From UHGV virus genome UHGV-1738141: a stretch of 21,416 bases of DNA; one strand, 5' to 3'. The translations under genes were made by a program, and so were the position numbers. The stretch comes from a virus. Under the pieces are notes generated by a model. That model did not search any database, was not told the DNA's origin, and worked only from the letters and a program-made list of their open reading frames with translations. Positions 6,034 to 16,739 of this stretch are shown piece after piece. The stretch's first letter is position 1; each line of letters opens with the position of its first letter.

Positions 6034-6191
6034 AATCACTAATTGCTGATGTTATCGGGTTGGCTGGTTTTGGCCTGCTTACGTGCGGGTTTTACCTGCA
6101 GTTTGGTATGGCTCCGGCTCTGATGCTGTCCGGCGGTTTACTGCTGGTGGGCGCACTGGCTATGGCCAGAAGGGGGACGCGTGCTGCTTGA
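6030..6191 (+). CDS. Small (53 aa) hydrophobic ORF, putative two-TM membrane protein, absent from the ORF track
   Basis: My translation: [56 protein letters not shown] overlaps the terminase stop (ATGA) and the 3' end overlaps the portal start. Coding status unproven. Confidence 0.35.
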
Positions 6192-7407
6192 TGCTCTGTT
6201 CAGAAGTAAATCACTGGAGAATCCTTCCACCCCGATAACCGGGGATGCCGTTGATACTGATGGGCTGTTCCGGGCAGACGTTTATGTCAGTCCTGAAACT
6301 GCGATGAAACTGGCTGCGGTGTATTCCTGTATCTATGTCCTGTCTTCCAGCCTTGCCCAGATGCCGTTGCATGTTATGCGCAGGCACAATGGGAAGGTTG
6401 AGCCCGCACGCGATCATCCGGCGTTTTATCTGGTTCATGATGAGCCCAATACCTGGCAAACCAGTTACAAATGGCGCGAACTGAAGCAACGTCACATCCT
6501 TGGCTGGGGGAATGGGTATACCTGGGTGAAACGTAATCGTCGCGGTGAAGTCATATCCCTGGATTGCTGTATGCCGTGGGAAACGACGCTGATGAATACT
6601 GGTGGCCGATACACCTACGGTTTGTACAACGAATATGGGGCGTTTGCGATCAGCCTCGACGATATGATCCACATCCGTGCGCTGGGTAATAATCAGAAGA
6701 TGGGGCTGAGTCCGATTATGCAACATGCCGAAACAATAGGCATGGGGATGAGCGGTCAGAAATACACAGAAAGCTTCTTCAGCGGTAATGCCCGTCCGGC
6801 GGGGATAGTATCCGTTAAAAGCGGACTCAATAAGGACAGCTGGGGCTGGCTTAAAGATCAGTGGCAGAAGGCATCGCAGGCGTTACGCAGCCAGGAAAAC
6901 AAAACCATGCTGCTGCCAGCCGATCTGGATTACAAGGCACTGACTGTGTCGCCAGTTGACGCTCAGATCATTGACATGATGAAACTGAACCGTTCAATGA
7001 TTGCCGGTATTTTCAATATTCCTGCGCACATGATTAATGACCTCGAAAAAGCCACCTTCTCCAATATTTCTGCGCAGGCGATTCAGTTTGTCCGCTACAC
7101 GATGATGCCGTGGGTGACGAACTGGGAGCAGGAGCTTAACCGTCGCTTGTTTACCCGCGCTGAGTTAGCCGCCGGGTATTACGTCAGGTTCAATCTGACG
7201 GGGCTTTTACGCGGAACTCCGCAGGAGCGCGCGCAATTCTATCACTTCGCTATTACCGATGGATGGATGAGCCGTAATGAGGCCCGCGCATTCGAGGATA
7301 TGAATCCGGTTGAAGGGCTGGATGAGATGCTGGTAAGCGTGAATGCTGCTAACCCGGCAGGAGATTTTAAGCCCCCAAAAAAAGATGAGGGAAAAACCAA
7401 TGAATGA
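6181..7407 (+). CDS. Portal protein, HK97 family
   Basis: 408 aa; N-terminal region with AVYSCIYVLSSSLAQMPLHV resembles the conserved HK97-type portal N-terminus. Probable GTG start with agaaggggga RBS; lies between terminase and prohead protease. Confidence 0.85.
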   Translation: MLLDALFRSKSLENPSTPITGDAVDTDGLFRADVYVSPETAMKLAAVYSCIYVLSSSLAQMPLHVMRRHNGKVEPARDHPAFYLVHDEPNTWQTSYKWRELKQRHILGWGNGYTWVKRNRRGEVISLDCCMPWETTLMNTGGRYTYGLYNEYGAFAISLDDMIHIRALGNNQKMGLSPIMQHAETIGMGMSGQKYTESFFSGNARPAGIVSVKSGLNKDSWGWLKDQWQKASQALRSQENKTMLLPADLDYKALTVSPVDAQIIDMMKLNRSMIAGIFNIPAHMINDLEKATFSNISAQAIQFVRYTMMPWVTNWEQELNRRLFTRAELAAGYYVRFNLTGLLRGTPQERAQFYHFAITDGWMSRNEARAFEDMNPVEGLDEMLVSVNAANPAGDFKPPKKDEGKTNE

Positions 7408-8002
7408 CCGTGAAATCCGTTGTTACAGCGGTGAGGTGCGTGCTGAGCGGCATGACGATAACCCTGCGCACATTATCGGTTATGGATCGGTGTTTGACTG
7501 TCGTTCTGAGCTGATATTTGGTTCATTCCGCGAAATCATCCGGCCCGGCGCTTTTGACGATGTGCTTGGTGATGATGTACGCGCACTGTTTAACCACGAT
7601 CCTAATTTTATTCTTGGGCGTAGTGCAGCAGGCACGCTGAATCTTTCAGTTGATGAGCGCGGATTGCGCTATGACATCCAGGCTCCGGAGACACAGACCA
7701 TTCGTGATCTGGTGCTGGCCCCGATGCAACGTGGAGATATTAACCAGTCATCTTTTGCTTTCCGTGTCGCCCGTGACGGCGAGGAGTGGTATCAGGATGA
7801 GGACGGGGTTGTTATTCGCGAGATAACCCGCTTTTCCCGTCTGCTGGATGTCAGTCCTGTGACATATCCTGCCTATCAGGAGGCTGACTCGGCTGTTCGC
7901 TCCATGAAAGCATGGCAGGAGGCGCGCAACAGCGGCGCGCTACAGAAAGCCATTAATCAACGTATGGCGCGTGAGCGCGTCCTGACCCTTCTTAACGCGT
8001 AA
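7400..8002 (+). CDS. Prohead maturation protease, HK97 family
   Basis: Start set at ATG 7400 (MNDREIRC...) with GAGG RBS at 7387-7390, overlapping the portal stop. Size and position between portal and capsid genes are typical of HK97-family prohead proteases. Confidence 0.8.
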   Translation: MNDREIRCYSGEVRAERHDDNPAHIIGYGSVFDCRSELIFGSFREIIRPGAFDDVLGDDVRALFNHDPNFILGRSAAGTLNLSVDERGLRYDIQAPETQTIRDLVLAPMQRGDINQSSFAFRVARDGEEWYQDEDGVVIREITRFSRLLDVSPVTYPAYQEADSAVRSMKAWQEARNSGALQKAINQRMARERVLTLLNA

Positions 8003-11097: not shown

Positions 11098-11268
11098 ATG
11101 TTTGTCAAACCTGTTAAAGGGCGGTCAGTGCCTGACCCTGCCCGCGGCGACCTTTTGCCCGCCGAAGGGCGAAATGTTGACGAGAACAACTACTGGCTGC
11201 GCCGTGAAGCAGCGGGTGATATCCGGCGCGTGAATAAAAAGGTGAATACCGATGACGATAAGCTTTAA
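11098..11268 (+). CDS. Small conserved protein (56 aa), DUF2635-like, absent from the ORF track
   Basis: My translation: MFVKPVKGRSVPDPARGDLLPAEGRNVDENNYWLRREAAGDIRRVNKKVNTDDDKL. gagga RBS at 11088-11092; overlaps the sheath start. The KP..G..V.DP.....LPAEG....E..YW.RR...GD pattern matches small proteins I recall upstream of Mu-type sheath genes. Confidence 0.45.
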   Translation: MFVKPVKGRSVPDPARGDLLPAEGRNVDENNYWLRREAAGDIRRVNKKVNTDDDKL

Positions 11269-12748
11269 CACCATTCCGTCGAATACGCTGGTTCCGTTGT
11301 TTTATGCGGAAATGGATAACCAGGCGGCGAATACTGCACAGGACAGCGGAGCATCGCTGCTGATTGGTCATGCCAATAACGGTGCAGAGATTGTTGCCAA
11401 CAGTCTGGTACTGATGCCGTCGGCAGACTATGCACGCCAGATTTGTGGTGCGGGAAGTCAGCTGGCGCGTATGGTCGAGGCTTATCGCCAGACCGACCCG
11501 TTTGGCGAGCTGTATGTGATTGCCGTTCCTGAATCCACAGGCGCGGCGGCAACAGTTACGCTGACGGTGACCGGGGCAGCAACCGAAACCGGCACGGTGA
11601 ATGTTTATGTGGGACGTACCCGCGTGCAGGCACCGGTGACCAACGGCGATAACGTCGCGACGATTGCCAGCAGTATCAAAGATGCCATCAATGCCGTTCC
11701 GGCCCTGCCGTTTACGGCCTCATCTTCGGCTGGTGTGGTTACATTGACCGCTCGCCATAAGGGGCTTTGCGGGAATGAAATTCCTGTCAGCCTCAATTAC
11801 TACGGCTTCGGTGGGGGCGAAGTGCTGCCAGCGGGCGTACAGATTGCCGTGGCGACGGGGACCGCCGGAACGGGCGCTCCGGTTCTCACCGGCGCGGTGG
11901 CTGCAATGGCGGATGAGCCGTTTGATTATATCGGTCTGCCGTTCAACGACACGGCCTCTGTTAACACGCTGGTGACCGAGATGAACGATACCAGCGGTCG
12001 CTGGAGCTATGCGCGTCAGCTGTATGGTCATGTGTATACGGCAAAGGCCGGCACACTGTCAGAACTGGTGAACGCAGGTGACCAGTTTAACCAGCAGCAC
12101 ATCACCCTGGCGGGGTACGAAAAAGAGACCCAGACGCCTGCCGACGAGCTGGCAGCCAGCCGTACCGCCCGCGCAGCGGTGTTTATCCGCAACGATCCGG
12201 CACGTCCCACGCAGACCGGTGAGATGGTGGGTATGCTGCCTGCGCCGAAGGGGAAACGGTTCACGATGACCGAACAACAGACCCTGCTGTCTCATGGCGT
12301 GGCAACGGCGTATGTCGAAAGCGGGGTACTGCGCATTCAGCGTGATGTCACCACGTACAGGAAAAACGCTTACGGGGTTGCGGATAACAGCTACCTCGAC
12401 AGTGAGACACTGCATACCAGCGCGTATGTACTGCGCAAACTGAAATCCGTCATTACCAGTAAGTACGGGCGTCACAAGCTTGCCAGTGACGGTACCCGCT
12501 TTGGTCCCGGTCAGGCGATTGTCACCCCGGCGGTGATCAAAGGGGAACTGCTGGCAACCTACCGTCAGCTTGAGCGTGCGGGGATCGTGGAAAACTACGA
12601 ACTGTTTAAGCAGTACCTGGTTGTGGAGCGTGATGCCAGCGATCCGAACCGCCTGAACACGCTGTTCCCGCCTGACTATGTTAACCAGTTGCGTGTCTTT
12701 GCCGTGGTTAACCAGTTCCGTCTTCAGTATTCAGAGGAGTCTGCATAA
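11252..12748 (+). CDS. Contractile tail sheath protein (Mu gpL-like)
   Basis: 498 aa; N-terminus MTISFNTIPSNTLVPLFYAE typical of Mu-type sheath proteins; followed directly by the tube gene. Confidence 0.85.
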   Translation: MTISFNTIPSNTLVPLFYAEMDNQAANTAQDSGASLLIGHANNGAEIVANSLVLMPSADYARQICGAGSQLARMVEAYRQTDPFGELYVIAVPESTGAAATVTLTVTGAATETGTVNVYVGRTRVQAPVTNGDNVATIASSIKDAINAVPALPFTASSSAGVVTLTARHKGLCGNEIPVSLNYYGFGGGEVLPAGVQIAVATGTAGTGAPVLTGAVAAMADEPFDYIGLPFNDTASVNTLVTEMNDTSGRWSYARQLYGHVYTAKAGTLSELVNAGDQFNQQHITLAGYEKETQTPADELAASRTARAAVFIRNDPARPTQTGEMVGMLPAPKGKRFTMTEQQTLLSHGVATAYVESGVLRIQRDVTTYRKNAYGVADNSYLDSETLHTSAYVLRKLKSVITSKYGRHKLASDGTRFGPGQAIVTPAVIKGELLATYRQLERAGIVENYELFKQYLVVERDASDPNRLNTLFPPDYVNQLRVFAVVNQFRLQYSEESA

Positions 12749-13104
12749 TGGCCCGTATCGGGGGAACCTGTTATTTCAAAATTGACGGTCAGCAGCTATC
12801 GCTGACCGGCGGCATTGAGGTGCCCATGAACAGGACGGTCAATGATGACATCATCGGCCTGGACGGTTCAGTGGACCGCAAGGAAACTCACCGTGCGCCT
12901 TATGTCAAAGGGACCTTCAAGGTGCCGAAGAATTTTCCGGTGAACAAAATCACCTCGTCTGATGAGATGACAATCACTGCCGAGCTGGCGAACGGTCAGG
13001 TCTATGTACTGTCGTCTGCCTGGCTGCACGGCGAAGCGAACCATAATGCCGAAGAAGGCACGGTTGATCTTGAGTTCCACGGTGAAGAAGGGGATTACCA
13101 GTAA
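12748..13104 (+). CDS. Tail tube protein (Mu gpM-like)
   Basis: 118 aa; ATGA-type overlap with the sheath stop; sheath-tube gene order. Confidence 0.75.
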   Translation: MARIGGTCYFKIDGQQLSLTGGIEVPMNRTVNDDIIGLDGSVDRKETHRAPYVKGTFKVPKNFPVNKITSSDEMTITAELANGQVYVLSSAWLHGEANHNAEEGTVDLEFHGEEGDYQ

Positions 13105-13373
13105 TGAAAGAGCTTGAGTTAAAGAAACCGATTACCGCTCATGGCGAGACACTCTCCGTACTGGAGTTTGATGAGCCCACCGGGAAAGATGTCCGCGAGC
13201 TGGGATATCCCTACCAGATGAATCAGGATGAGTCCGTCAGACTTCTGGCGCATGTGGTATCGAAATACATCGTGCGGCTGGCGAAAGTGCCGCAAAGCTC
13301 TGTCGACCAGATGTCTCCGGCAGACCTGAATGCAGCGGCGTGGCTTGTGGCCGGTTTTTTCCTCCAGGCCTGA
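13104..13373 (+). CDS. Tail assembly chaperone (G-like, short form)
   Basis: 89 aa acidic protein between the tube and tape-measure genes; ends just after a slippery heptamer. Confidence 0.7.
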   Translation: MKELELKKPITAHGETLSVLEFDEPTGKDVRELGYPYQMNQDESVRLLAHVVSKYIVRLAKVPQSSVDQMSPADLNAAAWLVAGFFLQA

Positions 13374-13522
13374 CGGCTGAATACCTCACTGATCGCTTCT
13401 TTGACTGCGCCAGTTACTGGCGCATTAATCCTTTCGAATTGCTGAATATGCCGATCAGTGAAATTCCCTTACTGGTCAGTCAGGCAAACAGGATAGAGCA
13501 GGAGAAACGCACACATGGCTGA
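13104..13522 (+). CDS. Tail assembly chaperone frameshift fusion (GT-like, long form)
   Basis: Joining the 13104 ORF to the overlapping -1 frame ORF (track 13340-13522) at the slippery site gives a ~139 aa product ending 8 nt into the tape-measure gene, the conserved arrangement upstream of tape-measure genes. Confidence 0.5.
13355..13361 (+). other. Candidate -1 programmed ribosomal frameshift slippery heptamer T_TTT_TTC
   Basis: Seen in sequence: ggttttttcc, in-frame codons GGT TTT TTC, fitting X_XXY_YYZ. The -1 frame is open from here to 13522. Confidence 0.55.
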
Positions 13523-15350
13523 ATTTGAGCTTAAGGCGTTGATCACCGGTGTCGACAGGCTTTCTCCGGCGCTGTCGAAAATGCAAAAGAAAATCCGGGG
13601 ATTTAAACGCCAGGCGGAAGAAGCGTCACAGGGTGGGCTGGCGCTTGGTGGCGGACTGGCAGCGGGTCTGACGCTTTCCCTGAAATCTTATGCCGATCAG
13701 GAAAACGCCGCCACCGGGCTGAAAGTCGCCATGATGGATGCGAACGGCGAGGTTGGAAAAAGCTTTCAGGACATCAATAAATTGGCTATTGGCCTGGGTA
13801 ACCAGCTACCCGGTACAACGGCTGATTTCCAGAACATGATGCAGATGCTGGTGCGTCAGGGGATCCCAGCAGAAAACATTCTGGGTGGTGTGGGTAAAGC
13901 GACAGCTTATCTTGCGGTACAACTGAAAAAAACACCGGAATCGGCAGCCGAGTTTGCTGCAAAGATGCAGGATGCTACCGGAACGGCGTCAGAAGACATG
14001 ATGGGGCTGTTCGACACTATCCAGAAAGCGTTTTATCTGGGCGTTGACGATACCAACATGTTGTCCTTCTTCACTAAAACCAGTTCTGTTCTGAAGATGG
14101 TGAATAAGGACGGTCTTCAGGCTGCACAGAGCCTTGCCCCTATCAGCGTCATGATGGATCAGATGGGGATGAACGGGGAGTCGGCAGGTAATGCCCTGCG
14201 AAAAGTTATTCAGTCCGGATTAAGCGTTAAGAAAATCAGGGACGTCAATAAAGTCATGGCCCGCCAGAAACTCGGAGTGCAGCTCGATTTTACTGACGGC
14301 AAAGGGAGTTTTGGCGGTCTTGATAACATGTTCAGGCAACTGGCAAAGCTGCGAAAACTGACCGACGTTAAGCGAACAGGTGTACTTAAGGCAATATTTG
14401 GTGATGATGCCGAAACCCTTCAGGTGGTCAATGCACTAATCGATAAAGGAAAGGATGGCTACGATCAGATCCAGCAGAAGATGAATAAACAGGCCAGCCT
14501 GAATAAACGTGTTCAGGCCCAGCTTGGTACGCTGTCCAACCTGTGGGAGGCAATGACGGGGACCGCAACTAACGGCCTTGCGGCTATTGGCGGCGCATTT
14601 TCTGGTGACGCCAAAAATATCACGCAATGGCTGGGGGAGTTGGGGGAGAAATTCACGAAGTTTGCGGATGAAAATCCCCGGGTTATTCGCGGCGTCGTCG
14701 GGCTTGCTGCCGGTCTTGCGATTCTGAAACTGGGATTGATGGGCGTTGGCGGTGCCATCAGTATTGTCAGCAGGATCATGTCGATGACGCCGATTGGCAT
14801 GATTGCGACGGCGATAGCCCTGGCTGCGGGATTAATTATCACTAACTGGGATGTTGTCGGACCTTATTTTAAGAAACTCTGGGAAACCATTAGTCCTTAT
14901 TTTGAGGCTGGCTGGGAACTTCTGAAGAAGGTTTTTGCCTGGTCGCCGCTGGGGATGGTGATCAATAACTGGGGACCGGTTGTTAAGTGGTTTCAGGATA
15001 TGTGGGATAAGCTGAAGCCGATTATTGAATGGTTTACCGACAGTTCCGGTGACACGGTCGATGCCATTAACTCTGCGCAGTGGGGCGCGGGTGCTTATGA
15101 TGCTTATGGGACGGGAATACCGGCGCGGGGATACAAACCTTATCCGGCGGTAGATCTGGCTCAGTCAAACAACGCCTCCGGTGCCACAGGCCCAAATCCC
15201 TTCATGATTAACAAAGCTTCTGCGCCAAAAGTTGATGGTGAGATCAAGGTCTCTTTTGTGAATTCGCCTCCGGGTATGCGGGTTATGGAAACGCGATCCA
15301 GCGGTTTTGATGTCAGCCATGATGTTGGCTATACGCGCTTTGGCAGGTAA
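13515..15350 (+). CDS. Tail tape measure protein
   Basis: 611 aa, Ala/Gly/Leu-rich with hydrophobic central segments (GLAAGLAILKLGLMGVGGAISIV); position after the chaperone pair. Confidence 0.85.
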   Translation: MAEFELKALITGVDRLSPALSKMQKKIRGFKRQAEEASQGGLALGGGLAAGLTLSLKSYADQENAATGLKVAMMDANGEVGKSFQDINKLAIGLGNQLPGTTADFQNMMQMLVRQGIPAENILGGVGKATAYLAVQLKKTPESAAEFAAKMQDATGTASEDMMGLFDTIQKAFYLGVDDTNMLSFFTKTSSVLKMVNKDGLQAAQSLAPISVMMDQMGMNGESAGNALRKVIQSGLSVKKIRDVNKVMARQKLGVQLDFTDGKGSFGGLDNMFRQLAKLRKLTDVKRTGVLKAIFGDDAETLQVVNALIDKGKDGYDQIQQKMNKQASLNKRVQAQLGTLSNLWEAMTGTATNGLAAIGGAFSGDAKNITQWLGELGEKFTKFADENPRVIRGVVGLAAGLAILKLGLMGVGGAISIVSRIMSMTPIGMIATAIALAAGLIITNWDVVGPYFKKLWETISPYFEAGWELLKKVFAWSPLGMVINNWGPVVKWFQDMWDKLKPIIEWFTDSSGDTVDAINSAQWGAGAYDAYGTGIPARGYKPYPAVDLAQSNNASGATGPNPFMINKASAPKVDGEIKVSFVNSPPGMRVMETRSSGFDVSHDVGYTRFGR

Positions 15351-15373
15351 TGAAAAATTAATCTGTTAATGAG

Positions 15374-15395
15374 TCCCACTCCGGTGGGATTTTTT
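15374..15395 (+). terminator. Rho-independent terminator-like hairpin downstream of the tape-measure gene
   Basis: tcccac-tccg-gtggga perfect 6-bp stem followed by tttttt (15390-15395); 24 nt after the tape-measure stop. Confidence 0.45.
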
Positions 15396-15410
15396 ATGTA
15401 CGGAGTTTAT

Positions 15411-16739
15411 ATGACGTGGAAAGACAGACTTCAGGACGCGTCATTTCGAGGTGTGCCGTTTAAGGTTGAAGAAGAAAGTGCGGGAACCGGCCGTCGTGTG
15501 GAAACACACGAATATCCGAACCGCGACAAACCCTATACCGAAGATCTGGGAAAAGTCACTTTCCGCCCGTCCATCACAGCTTATGTGGTGGGAGATGACT
15601 GCTTTGACCAGCGCGATCGCCTGATTGAAGCGCTGAATAAACCCGGTCCCGGCACGCTTGTCCATCCGACTTACGGTGAGCTGAAAGTCTGTGTTGACGG
15701 GGAAGTTCGGGTCAGCACATCGAAAAGTGAAGGACGTATTGTCCGCTTTGACCTGAAGTTTGTCGAAGCGGGAGAACTCTCTTACCCCACATCAGGTGCG
15801 GCGACGGCGCAGACGCTGATGTCATCCTGTTCTGCACTGGATGACTGCATCAGTGACAGTTTCAGTGGTTTCAGTATCGATGGCGTGGCAGATTTTGTGC
15901 AGAACGACGTCGTCGGTAATGCCGGCACAATGCTTGGGTATATTTCTGATGCGATGAAAGTGGTGGATTCTGCCGTATCGGATGCCGCCAGGCTGTTGCA
16001 GGGGGATATCTCGGTACTTCTGCCGCCGCCATCGTCAGGCAAAAATTTCGTTGAGCTGGTGCAGAAAATGTGGCGTACCGGGAAACGCCTTTATGGTAAC
16101 GCCAGCGACCTGGTCACCATGATCAAAACGCTTTCCGGTGTCAGCCTCGGCAGCGATCTGCAACCGCGCGGCGTCTGGAAAACGGACAGTAAAACCACCG
16201 CCACGGCGACGCAGCAGCGTAACGTGGTTGCCAGCACCCTTCGTACGACCGCAATCAGCGAAGCGGCGTATGCCGTCACCCGATTGCCTGCGCCAACAAC
16301 TTCCGCGGTGATGCAGAATGCCGCAGTGGGGCAGGCAACAACACCCGCGCAGAGCACTGGCTGGCCTTCCGTCACGCATCCGGCACTGAACAATGCACCG
16401 GCGGTGAAAAACACGGTTGACCTGCCGACGTGGGAAGAACTGACTGACATTCGCGACACACTGAATACGGCAATTGATAAGGAGTTGTCCCGTACAACCA
16501 GCGATGCGCTGTTTCTGGCGCTGCGCCGGGTGAAAGCAGATCTGAATGCGGATATCAACACGCGCCTTGAACAGTCTGCACGGATCATTCAGCGCACACC
16601 GGATGAAGTTTTACCCGCGCTGGTGCTGGCGGCGACCTGGTTTGATAACGCGGCGCGTGACGCGGACATTATCCGGCGTAATGCCATTACGCATCCCGGC
16701 TTTGTGCCGGTGATCCCTCTGAAGGTGCCAGTGCAATGA
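15411..16739 (+). CDS. DNA circulation protein (Mu gpN-like)
   Basis: Start set at ATG 15411 (MTWKDRLQDASFRGVPF...) with ggag RBS at 15402-15405; track ORF begins at 15369. N-terminus resembles Mu N-family proteins; position after tape measure. Confidence 0.7.
   Translation: MTWKDRLQDASFRGVPFKVEEESAGTGRRVETHEYPNRDKPYTEDLGKVTFRPSITAYVVGDDCFDQRDRLIEALNKPGPGTLVHPTYGELKVCVDGEVRVSTSKSEGRIVRFDLKFVEAGELSYPTSGAATAQTLMSSCSALDDCISDSFSGFSIDGVADFVQNDVVGNAGTMLGYISDAMKVVDSAVSDAARLLQGDISVLLPPPSSGKNFVELVQKMWRTGKRLYGNASDLVTMIKTLSGVSLGSDLQPRGVWKTDSKTTATATQQRNVVASTLRTTAISEAAYAVTRLPAPTTSAVMQNAAVGQATTPAQSTGWPSVTHPALNNAPAVKNTVDLPTWEELTDIRDTLNTAIDKELSRTTSDALFLALRRVKADLNADINTRLEQSARIIQRTPDEVLPALVLAATWFDNAARDADIIRRNAITHPGFVPVIPLKVPVQ

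What the first reader, a model, noticed from the sequence alone, without database searches (positions are those of the whole stretch)
13104..13522. Programmed -1 frameshift (T_TTT_TTC) joining the tail chaperone pair
The short chaperone ORF ends just after a canonical slippery heptamer at 13355-13361, and the -1 frame stays open for another ~55 codons into the start of the tape-measure gene. This is the conserved G/GT arrangement of tailed phages and implies a fusion product an ORF-by-ORF annotation would miss.
Basis: partly seen in the sequence, partly recalled or inferred. Interest (0 to 1): 0.4.

Follow-up and report, generated by a model that had tools for sequence, protein, structure and literature searches.

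The report
Phage tail chaperone frameshift site
This is the standard way tailed phages make two tail-assembly helper proteins from one start codon: a run of T's lets a minority of ribosomes slip back one base. In this SfV-like prophage the site is real and conserved, but it is missing from every database annotation examined.

Summary
The window is an SfV/SfI-like prophage. ORF 13104-13373 (89 aa) belongs to Pfam PF10109, the P2 E / Mu gp41 tail assembly chaperone family. It lies between the tail tube gene and the tape-measure gene. T_TTT_TTC at 13355-13361 is in the right phase (GGT|TTT|TTC). After a -1 slip, 53 codons stay open to TGA 13520-13522, which overlaps the tape-measure ATG (13515) by 8 nt.

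All 27 relatives examined (about 40-100% aa identity) keep T_TTT_TT[C/T] in phase. All keep a 50-59 codon -1 extension ending at the tape-measure start, although the 0-frame stop moves by 9-63 nt. Third-codon-position variation switches from frame 0 to frame -1 at the heptamer. Eighteen of 27 relatives have no start codon for the -1 ORF. Phage P2's annotated E/E+E' frameshift uses GGT TTT TTG at the equivalent residue.

No stimulatory structure is conserved at the canonical spacing. A conserved hairpin 45 nt downstream is unexplained.

Verdict: an ordinary G/GT-type programmed frameshift. It is not annotated in any GenBank, RefSeq or PGAP record checked. Low interest.

The parts
12748..13104 (+). 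Tail tube gene (118 aa), the upstream neighbour that sets the G/GT genomic position.
   Evidence: Pfam PF10618 Tail_tube, E=3.3e-33. Annotated as tail tube protein in SfI and in E. coli RefSeq records.
13104..13373 (+). G-like tail assembly chaperone ORF (89 aa), the product of ordinary frame-0 decoding.
   Evidence: Pfam PF10109 Phage_TAC_7 ('E, or 41 or 14'), E=1.9e-16, 60.3 bits against a cutoff of 25. Also phrog_166 'tail protein', 7.4e-24. Third-codon-position diversity is 0.525, against 0.16 and 0.096 at positions 1 and 2.
13355..13361 (+). Slippery heptamer T_TTT_TTC (0-frame codons GGT|TTT|TTC), the inferred site of tandem -1 slippage of two tRNA-Phe.
   Evidence: Correct phase. Kept as T_TTT_TT[C/T] in all 27 relatives. 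The three codons GGT, TTT and TTC are invariant in 14 SfV-clade sequences, whereas only 3 of 40 other conserved-residue codons are. The site is equivalent to P2's annotated GGT TTT TTG.
13361..13522 (+). T-like extension in the -1 frame: 53 sense codons (PPGLTAEY...EKRTHG) plus TGA. Joined to residues 1-86 of G it gives a 139-aa G-T fusion.
   Evidence: Translation. phrog_32181, E=4e-40, function unknown. tblastn of the fusion finds both parts in two frames in phages down to about 40% identity. Downstream of the G stop, diversity peaks at -1-frame position 3: 0.413 against 0.207 and 0.13. 18 of 27 relatives have no in-frame start codon upstream.
13515..15350 (+). Tape-measure protein gene (611 aa). 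Its ATG overlaps the stop of the -1 ORF by 8 nt (ATGGCTGA).
   Evidence: Pfam PF10145 PhageMin_Tail, 4.7e-27. The 8-nt overlap is present in 21 of 28 loci and also in P2.
13406..13424 (+). Conserved hairpin UGCGCCAG-UUA-CUGGCGCA inside the T ORF, 44 nt (45 from the G at 13407) 3' of the heptamer. Its role is unknown, and it is not at the canonical stimulator spacing.
   Evidence: It is the only consensus structure found by RNAalifold on 18 sequences, and it shows no covariation. All 4 degenerate stem codons are invariant, against 3 of 16 elsewhere in the T region. No stem polymorphism occurs among 35 DNA versions, while flanking and loop sites vary.

Best explanation
This is a programmed -1 ribosomal frameshift in the tail assembly chaperone gene of an SfV-like (Mu-type contractile tail) prophage.

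Most ribosomes decode 13104-13373 normally and release the 89-aa G-like chaperone. On U_UUU_UUC (13355-13361) a minority slip back one base. tRNA-Phe sits on UUU in the P site and on UUC in the A site, and both can re-pair with UUU in the -1 frame. These ribosomes then read 53 further codons to UGA 13520-13522 and make a 139-aa G-T fusion.

By analogy with lambda gpG/gpGT and P2 E/E+E', both products would act on the tape-measure protein during tail assembly. The T part would recruit the tube protein, the fixed low ratio of fusion to short form would matter, and neither product would end up in the virion.

Shown here: the sequence anatomy, family membership of the G part, conservation of the signal, protein-coding constraint in the -1 frame starting at the heptamer, and the lack of an independent start.

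Inferred: that the shift is ribosomal, its efficiency, and the assembly role.
For: - Anatomy and phase of the site.
- The G part is PF10109 and sits between tube and tape-measure genes.
- The window is 98-99% identical to phages SfI and SfV.
- All 27 relatives (about 40-100% aa identity) keep T_TTT_TT[C/T] in phase. They include Derxia, a Burkholderia phage, ST64B, phiP27 and SfIV. All have a 50-59 codon -1 extension ending within -2 to +14 nt of the tape-measure start, and fusions of 136-142 aa. The 0-frame stop meanwhile moves 9-63 nt, and the codon before the run changes from Gly to Asn or Arg while keeping its final T.
- Synonymous sites are suppressed exactly at the heptamer: its 3 codons are invariant, against 3 of 40 elsewhere.
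- Codon-position diversity switches from frame 0 to frame -1 at the site.
- The T part is conserved as protein.
- 18 of 27 relatives have no -1-frame start codon upstream.
- The +1 frame closes after 2 codons.
- The P2 RefSeq record annotates E+E' as a -1 frameshift at GGT TTT TTG. The sizes are similar (91 and 142 aa) and the overlap with gene T is also 8 nt (summarised in PMC3091744). Five P2-like loci keep that heptamer too.
- U_UU.U_UU.C is a shift-prone motif in E. coli. H_HH.U_UU.Y is listed among the most efficient classes, and the measured rate is 7.6% with the IS3 pseudoknot (PMC4066793).
- An AlphaFold model (pLDDT 86.9) best matches predicted phage tail-assembly and tape-measure chaperones, including an annotated frameshift fusion.
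- The assembly mechanism comes from the review PMC5009743.
Against: - No protein evidence exists for the fusion.
- The bare U_UUU_UUC motif gave only 0.12% frameshifting in an E. coli reporter without a stimulator.
- I found no conserved stem-loop or pseudoknot at 5-9 nt and no SD-like sequence 6-17 nt upstream. A useful efficiency therefore has to come from an unidentified context, as also seems true for P2.
- Three of 80 near-identical viral contigs carry GGT to GGG, which degrades the heptamer to G_UUU_UUC or G_UUU_UUU. Their tube ORF is intact in all three, and the tape-measure ORF is intact in the two where it is fully covered.
- The T part does not hit Pfam PF06528, the P2 E' family. Profile comparison with P2 E' is only suggestive, P about 0.01-0.04.
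Confidence: 0.9

Rival explanations
1. The 60-codon ORF 13340-13522 is translated on its own from GTG 13340, as a separate small protein. One phage record annotates it that way, with no frameshift.
For: The ORF has a GTG start in the window. It is annotated as a stand-alone 'hypothetical protein' in phage vB_EcoM-689R6. PHROGs holds it as a family of its own, phrog_32181.
Against: The GTG has no Shine-Dalgarno sequence upstream. 18 of 27 relatives have no ATG, GTG or TTG at all in the -1 frame between the preceding stop and the heptamer. Upstream of the heptamer, variation falls on -1-frame first positions, so that frame is not under coding constraint until the heptamer.
Confidence: 0.03
2. 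The fusion arises by transcriptional slippage of RNA polymerase on the T6 run. This would give mRNAs with one U fewer or two more, rather than ribosomal slippage.
For: The site is a homopolymer. One variant contig keeps a T6 run shifted by one base (GGG TTT TTT CT), which preserves run length rather than phase. A weak hairpin directly precedes the run.
Against: Six or seven T's is shorter than the runs of about 9 that my own knowledge of bacterial transcriptional slippage associates with productive realignment. What is conserved is the phase-specific X_XXY_YYZ pattern, including the wobble T of the preceding codon whatever its amino acid. The homologous P2 site is annotated as translational. 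The commonest slippage product (+1 U) would give the +1 frame, which closes after 2 codons. The upstream hairpin was flagged in a scan that found 3 terminator-like sites where 0.9 were expected; I judged it weak.
Confidence: 0.05
3. Nothing is recoded. The T-run is a by-product of the conserved Gly-Phe-Phe residues, and the 141 nt between G and the tape-measure gene are a non-coding spacer with a chance open frame.
For: Every database annotation examined leaves the stretch as a gap. Phe-Phe is conserved at the protein level.
Against: The 'spacer' shows coding-type third-position periodicity in the -1 frame. It is alignable as protein down to about 40% identity. It always stays open to the tape-measure start. 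Codon choice (GGT, TTT) is invariant although synonymous alternatives exist and neighbouring codons vary freely.
Confidence: 0.02

Closest known systems
Phage P2 E / E+E' (-1 frameshift at T_TTT_TTG; FETUD tail operon)
   Same: - Same Pfam family for the upstream ORF (PF10109).
- Same position, after the tube gene and before the tape-measure gene.
- The slip site is at the equivalent residue (…V/A-G-F-; GGT TTT TTG against GGT TTT TTC).
- Near-identical sizes: 91 and 142 aa in P2, 89 and 139 aa here.
- Same 8-nt overlap of the -1 stop with the tape-measure ATG.
- Both belong to contractile tails.
   Different: - No pairwise sequence similarity is detectable between the G parts: BLASTP finds nothing, hhalign E=0.2.
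- The T part does not hit Pfam PF06528 (GpE). It is only weakly colinear with E', P about 0.01-0.04.
- The last base of the heptamer is C or T rather than G.
- The surrounding sheath and tube genes are Mu-type (PF10618 tube), not P2-type (PF04985).
Phage lambda gpG / gpGT (-1 frameshift at G_GGA_AAG)
   Same: - Same logic and position: a short chaperone plus a rare frameshift-extended form, made from one start just upstream of the tape-measure gene.
- Mechanism as summarised in PMC5009743: a G:GT ratio of about 30:1, G binds the tape-measure protein, T binds the major tail protein, and neither is in virions.
   Different: - A different protein family and a different heptamer.
- Lambda has a non-contractile tail.
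- Efficiency and binding partners are untested here.
Phage Mu gp41 / gp42-region frameshift
   Same: - The window's sheath, tube and DNA-circulation genes are Mu-like.
- Mu gp41 is named in the same Pfam family title.
- The Mu record notes the structurally homologous position.
   Different: - Mu is reported to use a -2 shift (Xu et al. 2004, as summarised in PMC2628397).
- Mu gp41 is 144 aa and has no T-run at its 3' end.
- hhalign of the G profile against Mu gp41 finds nothing.
- The recoding signal here is P2-like, not Mu-like.

Membership tests
G/GT-type tail assembly chaperone frameshift (Levin et al. 1993; Xu, Hendrix & Duda 2004) | Two overlapping ORFs lie between the major tail/tube gene and the tape-measure gene. 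| tested here: met
   Tube 12748-13104 (PF10618), G 13104-13373, -1 ORF to 13522, tape-measure 13515-15350 (PF10145).
G/GT-type tail assembly chaperone frameshift (Levin et al. 1993; Xu, Hendrix & Duda 2004) | [quoted passage not shown] | tested here: met
   T_TTT_TTC at 13355-13361, 3 codons before the stop. The motif class is shift-prone in E. coli (PMC4066793).
G/GT-type tail assembly chaperone frameshift (Levin et al. 1993; Xu, Hendrix & Duda 2004) | The downstream ORF lacks its own initiation signal and is under protein-coding constraint only from the slip site onward. | tested here: met
   18 of 27 relatives have no start codon. The frame switch in codon-position diversity occurs at the heptamer.
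G/GT-type tail assembly chaperone frameshift (Levin et al. 1993; Xu, Hendrix & Duda 2004) | The arrangement is conserved in related phages despite sequence divergence. | tested here: met
   27 of 27 relatives at about 40-100% identity. 77 of 80 near-identical contigs.
G/GT-type tail assembly chaperone frameshift (Levin et al. 1993; Xu, Hendrix & Duda 2004) | The fusion protein is actually produced at a low, fixed ratio to the short product. | not testable with these tools
   Needs a western blot, mass spectrometry or a reporter assay.
G/GT-type tail assembly chaperone frameshift (Levin et al. 1993; Xu, Hendrix & Duda 2004) | Both products are required for tail assembly and are absent from virions. 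| not testable with these tools
   Needs genetics and virion proteomics. Inferred only from lambda (PMC5009743) and from the P2 record's note 'essential tail protein'.
Pfam PF10109 Phage_TAC_7 (P2 E, Mu gp41, gp14) | The HMM match is above the gathering threshold. | tested here: met
   60.3 bits against a cutoff of 25, E=1.9e-16, covering profile positions 2-78 of 79.
Pfam PF06528 Phage_P2_GpE (the E' extension of P2-like phages) | The HMM matches the -1 frame extension. | tested here: not met
   No hit for the window's T part or for 14 diverse T parts at E up to 1-10. P2-like fusions do carry PF06528.
Pfam PF06528 Phage_P2_GpE (the E' extension of P2-like phages) | Remote homology is detectable by profile comparison. 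| tested here: inconclusive
   hhalign of the T-part profile against P2 E' or a P2-clade E' alignment gives colinear 31-48 columns at P=0.013-0.043.
Canonical stimulated -1 PRF (dnaX / IS3 type) | A downstream stem-loop or pseudoknot lies 5-9 nt from the heptamer, or an SD-like sequence lies 6-17 nt upstream. | tested here: not met
   Folds of 40 and 60 nt downstream have z = +0.23 and +0.07. The only consensus structure lies 45 nt downstream. No SD-like motif upstream. No Rfam family matches anywhere in the window.

The most novel reading that the evidence does not exclude
The 8-bp hairpin (or DNA palindrome) at 13406-13424 shows synonymous-site constraint across the SfV clade. It could be a functional element tied to this recoding unit. 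Examples would be a distal modulator of frameshift efficiency, or a stabiliser or regulator of the sparsely translated stretch that precedes the tape-measure start. That would help explain how a weak bare heptamer reaches a useful efficiency without a canonical stimulator.
Probability: 0.1. Interest if true: 0.4.

Novelty: new member of a known kind. Interest (0 to 1): 0.15.

Why it matters
The value is mainly for annotation. The locus occurs in 918 of 5,426 complete E. coli genomes and in the SfV, SfI, SfII, SfIV, ST64B and phiP27 phage records. In every record examined, the 141 nt between the chaperone and the tape-measure gene are left blank or called a stand-alone hypothetical protein. A probably essential 139-aa tail assembly protein is therefore missing.

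Recognising the frameshift has three consequences:
- It gives phrog_32181 (function unknown) a role as the T domain of a chaperone fusion.
- It shows that a Mu-type tail module can carry a P2-type recoding signal.
- It matters for anyone engineering these prophages or tailocins, because recoding the T-run or 'cleaning up' the overlap would probably abolish tail assembly.

It does not change understanding of frameshifting or tail assembly.

Tried and rejected
- **Stimulatory structure at 5-9 nt.** A weak GGCC-UGAC-GGCU hairpin is present but is no better than shuffles. Its third-position sites vary freely in relatives. Rejected.
- **Long-range stem 13386-13394 with 13452-13460.** It drives z=-3.25 in the 100-nt fold, but relatives break it without compensation. 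Rejected as recent or chance.
- **A shared hairpin in the P2 clade.** P2 has CAGUGA-UAUU-UCACUG at nearly the equivalent codons. One of five P2-like loci breaks it and none compensates. There is no evidence for a shared element.
- **Direct homology of the G part to P2 E or Mu gp41.** BLASTP and hhalign find nothing. The relationship rests only on the common Pfam family.
- **'Full-length' fusion proteins in the protein database (P0001-P0006).** These are multi-frame products of low-quality assemblies, not natural fusions.
- **Viral-contig scans.** They returned only 99-100% identical loci. They were useful for population-level checks only.
- **Literature.** No held paper describes the frameshift for SfV-group phages. 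The SfV genome paper, Christie et al. 2002 and Xu et al. 2004 are not held. I could not check whether Xu et al. already list SfV.

Full report
**What the window is.** The region 12748-13700 is 98-99% identical to the Shigella/E. coli temperate myophages SfI, SfV, SfII and relatives. A 457-nt query across the finding matches 918 of 5,426 complete E. coli genomes, almost all at 95-100% identity. Pfam assigns the neighbouring ORFs as follows:
- tail sheath, 11252-12748
- tail tube, 12748-13104 (PF10618, 3.3e-33)
- tape-measure protein, 13515-15350 (PF10145, 4.7e-27)
- a Mu-N-like DNA-circulation protein, 15369-16739

The finding therefore lies in the tail module of an SfV-like prophage with a Mu-type contractile tail.

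**Checking the observation.** The sequence is as described.
- ORF 13104-13373 encodes 89 aa ending ...AAWLVAGFFLQA*.
- The codons at the site are GCC GGT TTT TTC CTC CAG GCC TGA. T_TTT_TTC at 13355-13361 is therefore in the X_XXY_YYZ phase needed for tandem -1 slippage.
- The next -1 codon is CCT at 13361. The frame runs 53 sense codons to TGA 13520-13522, eight bases into the tape-measure gene (ATG 13515).
- The predicted fusion is 139 aa.
It should read AGFF|PPGLTAEY.
- The +1 frame closes after two codons, so -1 is the only productive shift.

For a chance baseline I counted heptamers in the window's 26 plus-strand genes (6,628 codons). They contain 19 in-phase XXXYYYZ heptamers. Only two are followed by 50 or more open -1 codons. 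Only this one sits at the 3' end of its gene with a -1 ORF that stops at the next gene's start.

**What the upstream ORF is.** It matches Pfam PF10109, 'Phage tail assembly chaperone proteins, E, or 41 or 14', at 60.3 bits against a gathering score of 25. It also matches phrog_166 'tail protein'. The -1 extension matches only phrog_32181, a 63-position family of unknown function. It hits no Pfam or NCBIfam model.

An AlphaFold2 model of the fusion, built on 35 sequences, has mean pLDDT 86.9. It shows a beta-hairpin plus helices in the G part and three helices in the T part. Its best matches among predicted viral structures are proteins named tape-measure chaperone or tail assembly chaperone. 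One of them is annotated as a frameshift fusion (best E=1.7e-4). Nothing significant is found among solved structures.

**Comparative test of the frameshift.** I collected 20 loci from one-genome-per-species bacterial contigs, six diverged phage records, and SfV and a diverged E. coli prophage. Identity to the window's G protein runs from 100% down to about 40%. Hosts include Enterobacterales, a Burkholderia phage and Derxia.

All 27 relatives have T_TTT_TTC or T_TTT_TTT in the right phase at the same place in the protein.
- The 0-frame stop lies anywhere from 9 to 63 nt downstream.
- The -1 extension is always 50-59 codons and the fusion 136-142 aa.
- The -1 stop falls within -2 to +14 nt of the tape-measure start, with exactly an 8-nt overlap in 21 of 28 loci.
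- In ST64B, phiP27 and SfIV the residue before the run is Asn or Arg instead of Gly, yet its codon still ends in T (AAT, CGT). That points to a constraint on the nucleotide rather than on the amino acid.

Within 14 ungapped SfV-clade sequences, 40 codons of G have an invariant, degenerate amino acid. Only 3 of these have an invariant codon. All three heptamer codons (GGT, TTT, TTC) are invariant.

Mean per-site diversity by codon position changes at the heptamer:
- In G, frame 0: 0.16 / 0.096 / 0.525.
- Downstream of the G stop, frame -1: 0.207 / 0.13 / 0.413.
- Just upstream of the heptamer the variable sites are -1-frame first positions, so the -1 frame is not coding there.

The extension aligns as protein across the whole set, with the motif [YF]-x-x-A-x-[YF]-W-[RKH]-[IL]-x-P-x-E...Q-A-x-R-I. 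tblastn of the fusion recovers both halves in two frames from phages at about 40% identity. In 18 of 27 relatives there is no ATG, GTG or TTG in the -1 frame between the preceding stop and the heptamer. The window's GTG 13340 has no Shine-Dalgarno sequence. The T ORF therefore cannot generally be initiated on its own.

**Population-level check.** Eighty near-identical viral contigs give 35 DNA versions of the 419-nt unit. Of these contigs, 77 keep GGTTTTTTCC. Three carry the synonymous change GGT to GGG, and one of those also has C13361T, which restores a T6 run shifted by one base. All three have an intact tube ORF, and the tape-measure ORF is intact in two and runs off the locus in the third. 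These variants keep the U_UUY A-site tetramer. The heptamer is therefore strongly conserved but not absolutely so. Thirteen contigs change the -1 stop TGA to GGA, which adds two residues.

**Comparison with the known cases.** In the P2 RefSeq record, E+E' is a two-piece CDS marked '-1 frameshift', with the site annotated.
- P2 reads ...GTC GGT TTT TTG TCG... (...VGFL), and the window reads ...GCC GGT TTT TTC CTC... (...AGFF).
- The products are 91 and 142 aa in P2 against 89 and 139 aa here.
- In both, the -1 stop overlaps the tape-measure ATG by 8 nt.
- Five further P2-like loci keep T_TTT_TTG in phase.

PMC3091744 summarises the P2 case, citing Christie et al. 2002 and Xu et al. 2004. PMC5009743 summarises the lambda mechanism. 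In lambda the G:GT ratio is about 30:1 and is critical. G binds the tape-measure protein and T binds the major tail protein. Neither is in virions, and efficiency is 2-3 fold higher in P2-like phages. PMC2628397 reports, citing Xu et al., that Mu uses a -2 shift. Mu gp41 is 144 aa and has no T-run at its end. The window thus combines Mu-type sheath and tube genes with a P2-type recoding signal.

Sequence similarity to P2 is weak. The G parts share only the Pfam family. The T part does not hit PF06528, the P2 E' family that P2-like fusions carry. Profile comparison gives a colinear alignment at P about 0.01-0.04. That is suggestive of remote homology but not conclusive.

**How it probably works, and what is missing.** E. 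coli decodes UUU and UUC with the same tRNA-Phe (established knowledge). After a one-base backward slip both P- and A-site tRNAs can re-pair with UUU. Sharma et al. 2014 place H_HH.U_UU.Y among the most efficient classes in E. coli. Their measured -1 frameshifting rates:

| Heptamer | No stimulator | IS911 stimulator | IS3 pseudoknot |
|---|---|---|---|
| UUUUUUC (this window) | 0.12% | 0.89% | 7.6% |
| UUUUUUG (P2) | 0.12% | 0.25% | 0.77% |

- The 40- and 60-nt stretches after the heptamer fold no better than shuffles, z = +0.23 and +0.07.
- RNAalifold on 18 sequences finds no structure at the canonical 5-9 nt spacing.
- There is no SD-like motif upstream.
- No Rfam family matches anywhere in the window.

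The efficiency cannot be predicted from sequence. By analogy with lambda and P2 it should be a few per cent, but this is inference.

**An unexplained detail.** The only conserved structure is an 8-bp hairpin, UGCGCCAG-UUA-CUGGCGCA, at 13406-13424. It lies 44 nt (45 from the G at 13407) 3' of the heptamer and about 90 nt 5' of the tape-measure ATG.
- Its pairs never covary, so the counts neither prove nor disprove it.
- All four degenerate stem codons (TGC, GCC, TAC, CGC) are invariant in the 14-sequence set. Only 3 of 16 other conserved-residue codons in the T region are. The hypergeometric probability is about 0.007, calculated after the pattern was noticed.
- The loop codon and both flanking codons vary. 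No stem polymorphism occurs in 35 population variants.
- It is kept in the SfV clade and three more distant loci, but not in the ST64B, Derxia or Burkholderia branches.
- P2 has a 6-bp hairpin at nearly the equivalent codons, but that one is not conserved in its clade.

The hairpin is too far from the slip site to act as a classical stimulator. I leave it as a lineage-specific, unexplained element.

**Rivals.**
- Independent initiation of the 60-codon ORF, as one phage record annotates it, is contradicted by the missing start codons and by the codon-position data.
- Transcriptional slippage is unlikely. The run is only 6-7 T's. It is phase, not just run length, that is conserved. The commonest slippage product would enter the closed +1 frame.
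- A non-coding spacer is excluded by the coding signature and protein-level conservation.

**Novelty and verdict.** The phenomenon is textbook. The finding is a correct recognition of it. None of the GenBank, RefSeq or PGAP records I opened annotates the fusion. These were SfI, SfV, vB_EcoM-689R6, AH07, F1055, ST64B, phiP27, BgVeeders33, SfIV and two E. coli chromosomes. No held paper describes it for this phage group. I could not read Xu et al. 2004 to see whether SfV is already tabulated there. I class it as an unannotated member of a known kind. My confidence in the mechanism is about 0.9, and the interest is low (0.15). The practical value is in correcting annotation.

Noticed in passing
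window 13406-13424: A perfect 8-bp hairpin or palindrome, TGCGCCAG-TTA-CTGGCGCA, lies inside the T ORF. It is 44 nt (45 from the G at 13407) 3' of the heptamer. Its synonymous sites are invariant across the SfV clade, while loop and flanking codons vary. There is no covariation. The function is unknown.
   Followed up: partly
window 7374-7384: The run CCCAAAAAAAG lies in the 65-nt overlap of the portal-like ORF (6181-7407) and the protease-like ORF (7343-8002). It contains in-phase A_AAA_AAA (portal frame) and A_AAA_AAG (protease frame) heptamers, each followed by only 1-7 open -1 codons. It is probably incidental.
   Followed up: no
L026, L057, L063 (viral contigs), equivalent to window 13355 and 13361: Three of 80 near-identical contigs carry the synonymous change GGT to GGG, which breaks the first T of the heptamer. 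One of them also has C to T at the last position, restoring a T6 run shifted by one base. The tube ORF is intact in all three. The tape-measure ORF is intact in L026 and L057 and runs off the locus in L063.
   Followed up: partly
13 of 80 viral contigs, equivalent to window 13520: The -1 ORF stop TGA is changed to GGA. The T extension then runs two codons further, to the next in-frame TGA. The exact C-terminus of the fusion is therefore not strictly fixed.
   Followed up: no
L199:601-1035 (Logan SRR23384624), protein P0142: A P2-like locus has GGTTTTGTC (T4) instead of GGTTTTTTGTC. E and E' are then fused in frame into a single 144-aa ORF, and no separate E product would be made. The protein is carried on 11 contigs. 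It could be a natural GT-only variant or a recurrent homopolymer assembly error.
   Followed up: no
window 13341-13353 followed by the T-run 13355-13360: A terminator-like pattern: a small hairpin TGGCT-TGT-GGCCG directly followed by the T-run. The pattern scan flagged it among 3 sites where 0.9 were expected. It is weak, and I did not check its conservation in relatives specifically.
   Followed up: no
proteins P0001-P0006 (protein database hits to the fusion): These apparent full-length 'fusion' proteins of 107-139 aa are mosaics of several reading frames from low-quality metagenome assemblies. They should not be taken as evidence for natural in-frame fusions.
   Followed up: yes
window 13386-13394 and 13452-13460: A 9-bp inverted repeat, CACTGATCG / CGATCAGTG, spans the hairpin and gives the 100-nt fold a z-score of -3.25. 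Relatives break it without compensation.
   Followed up: yes
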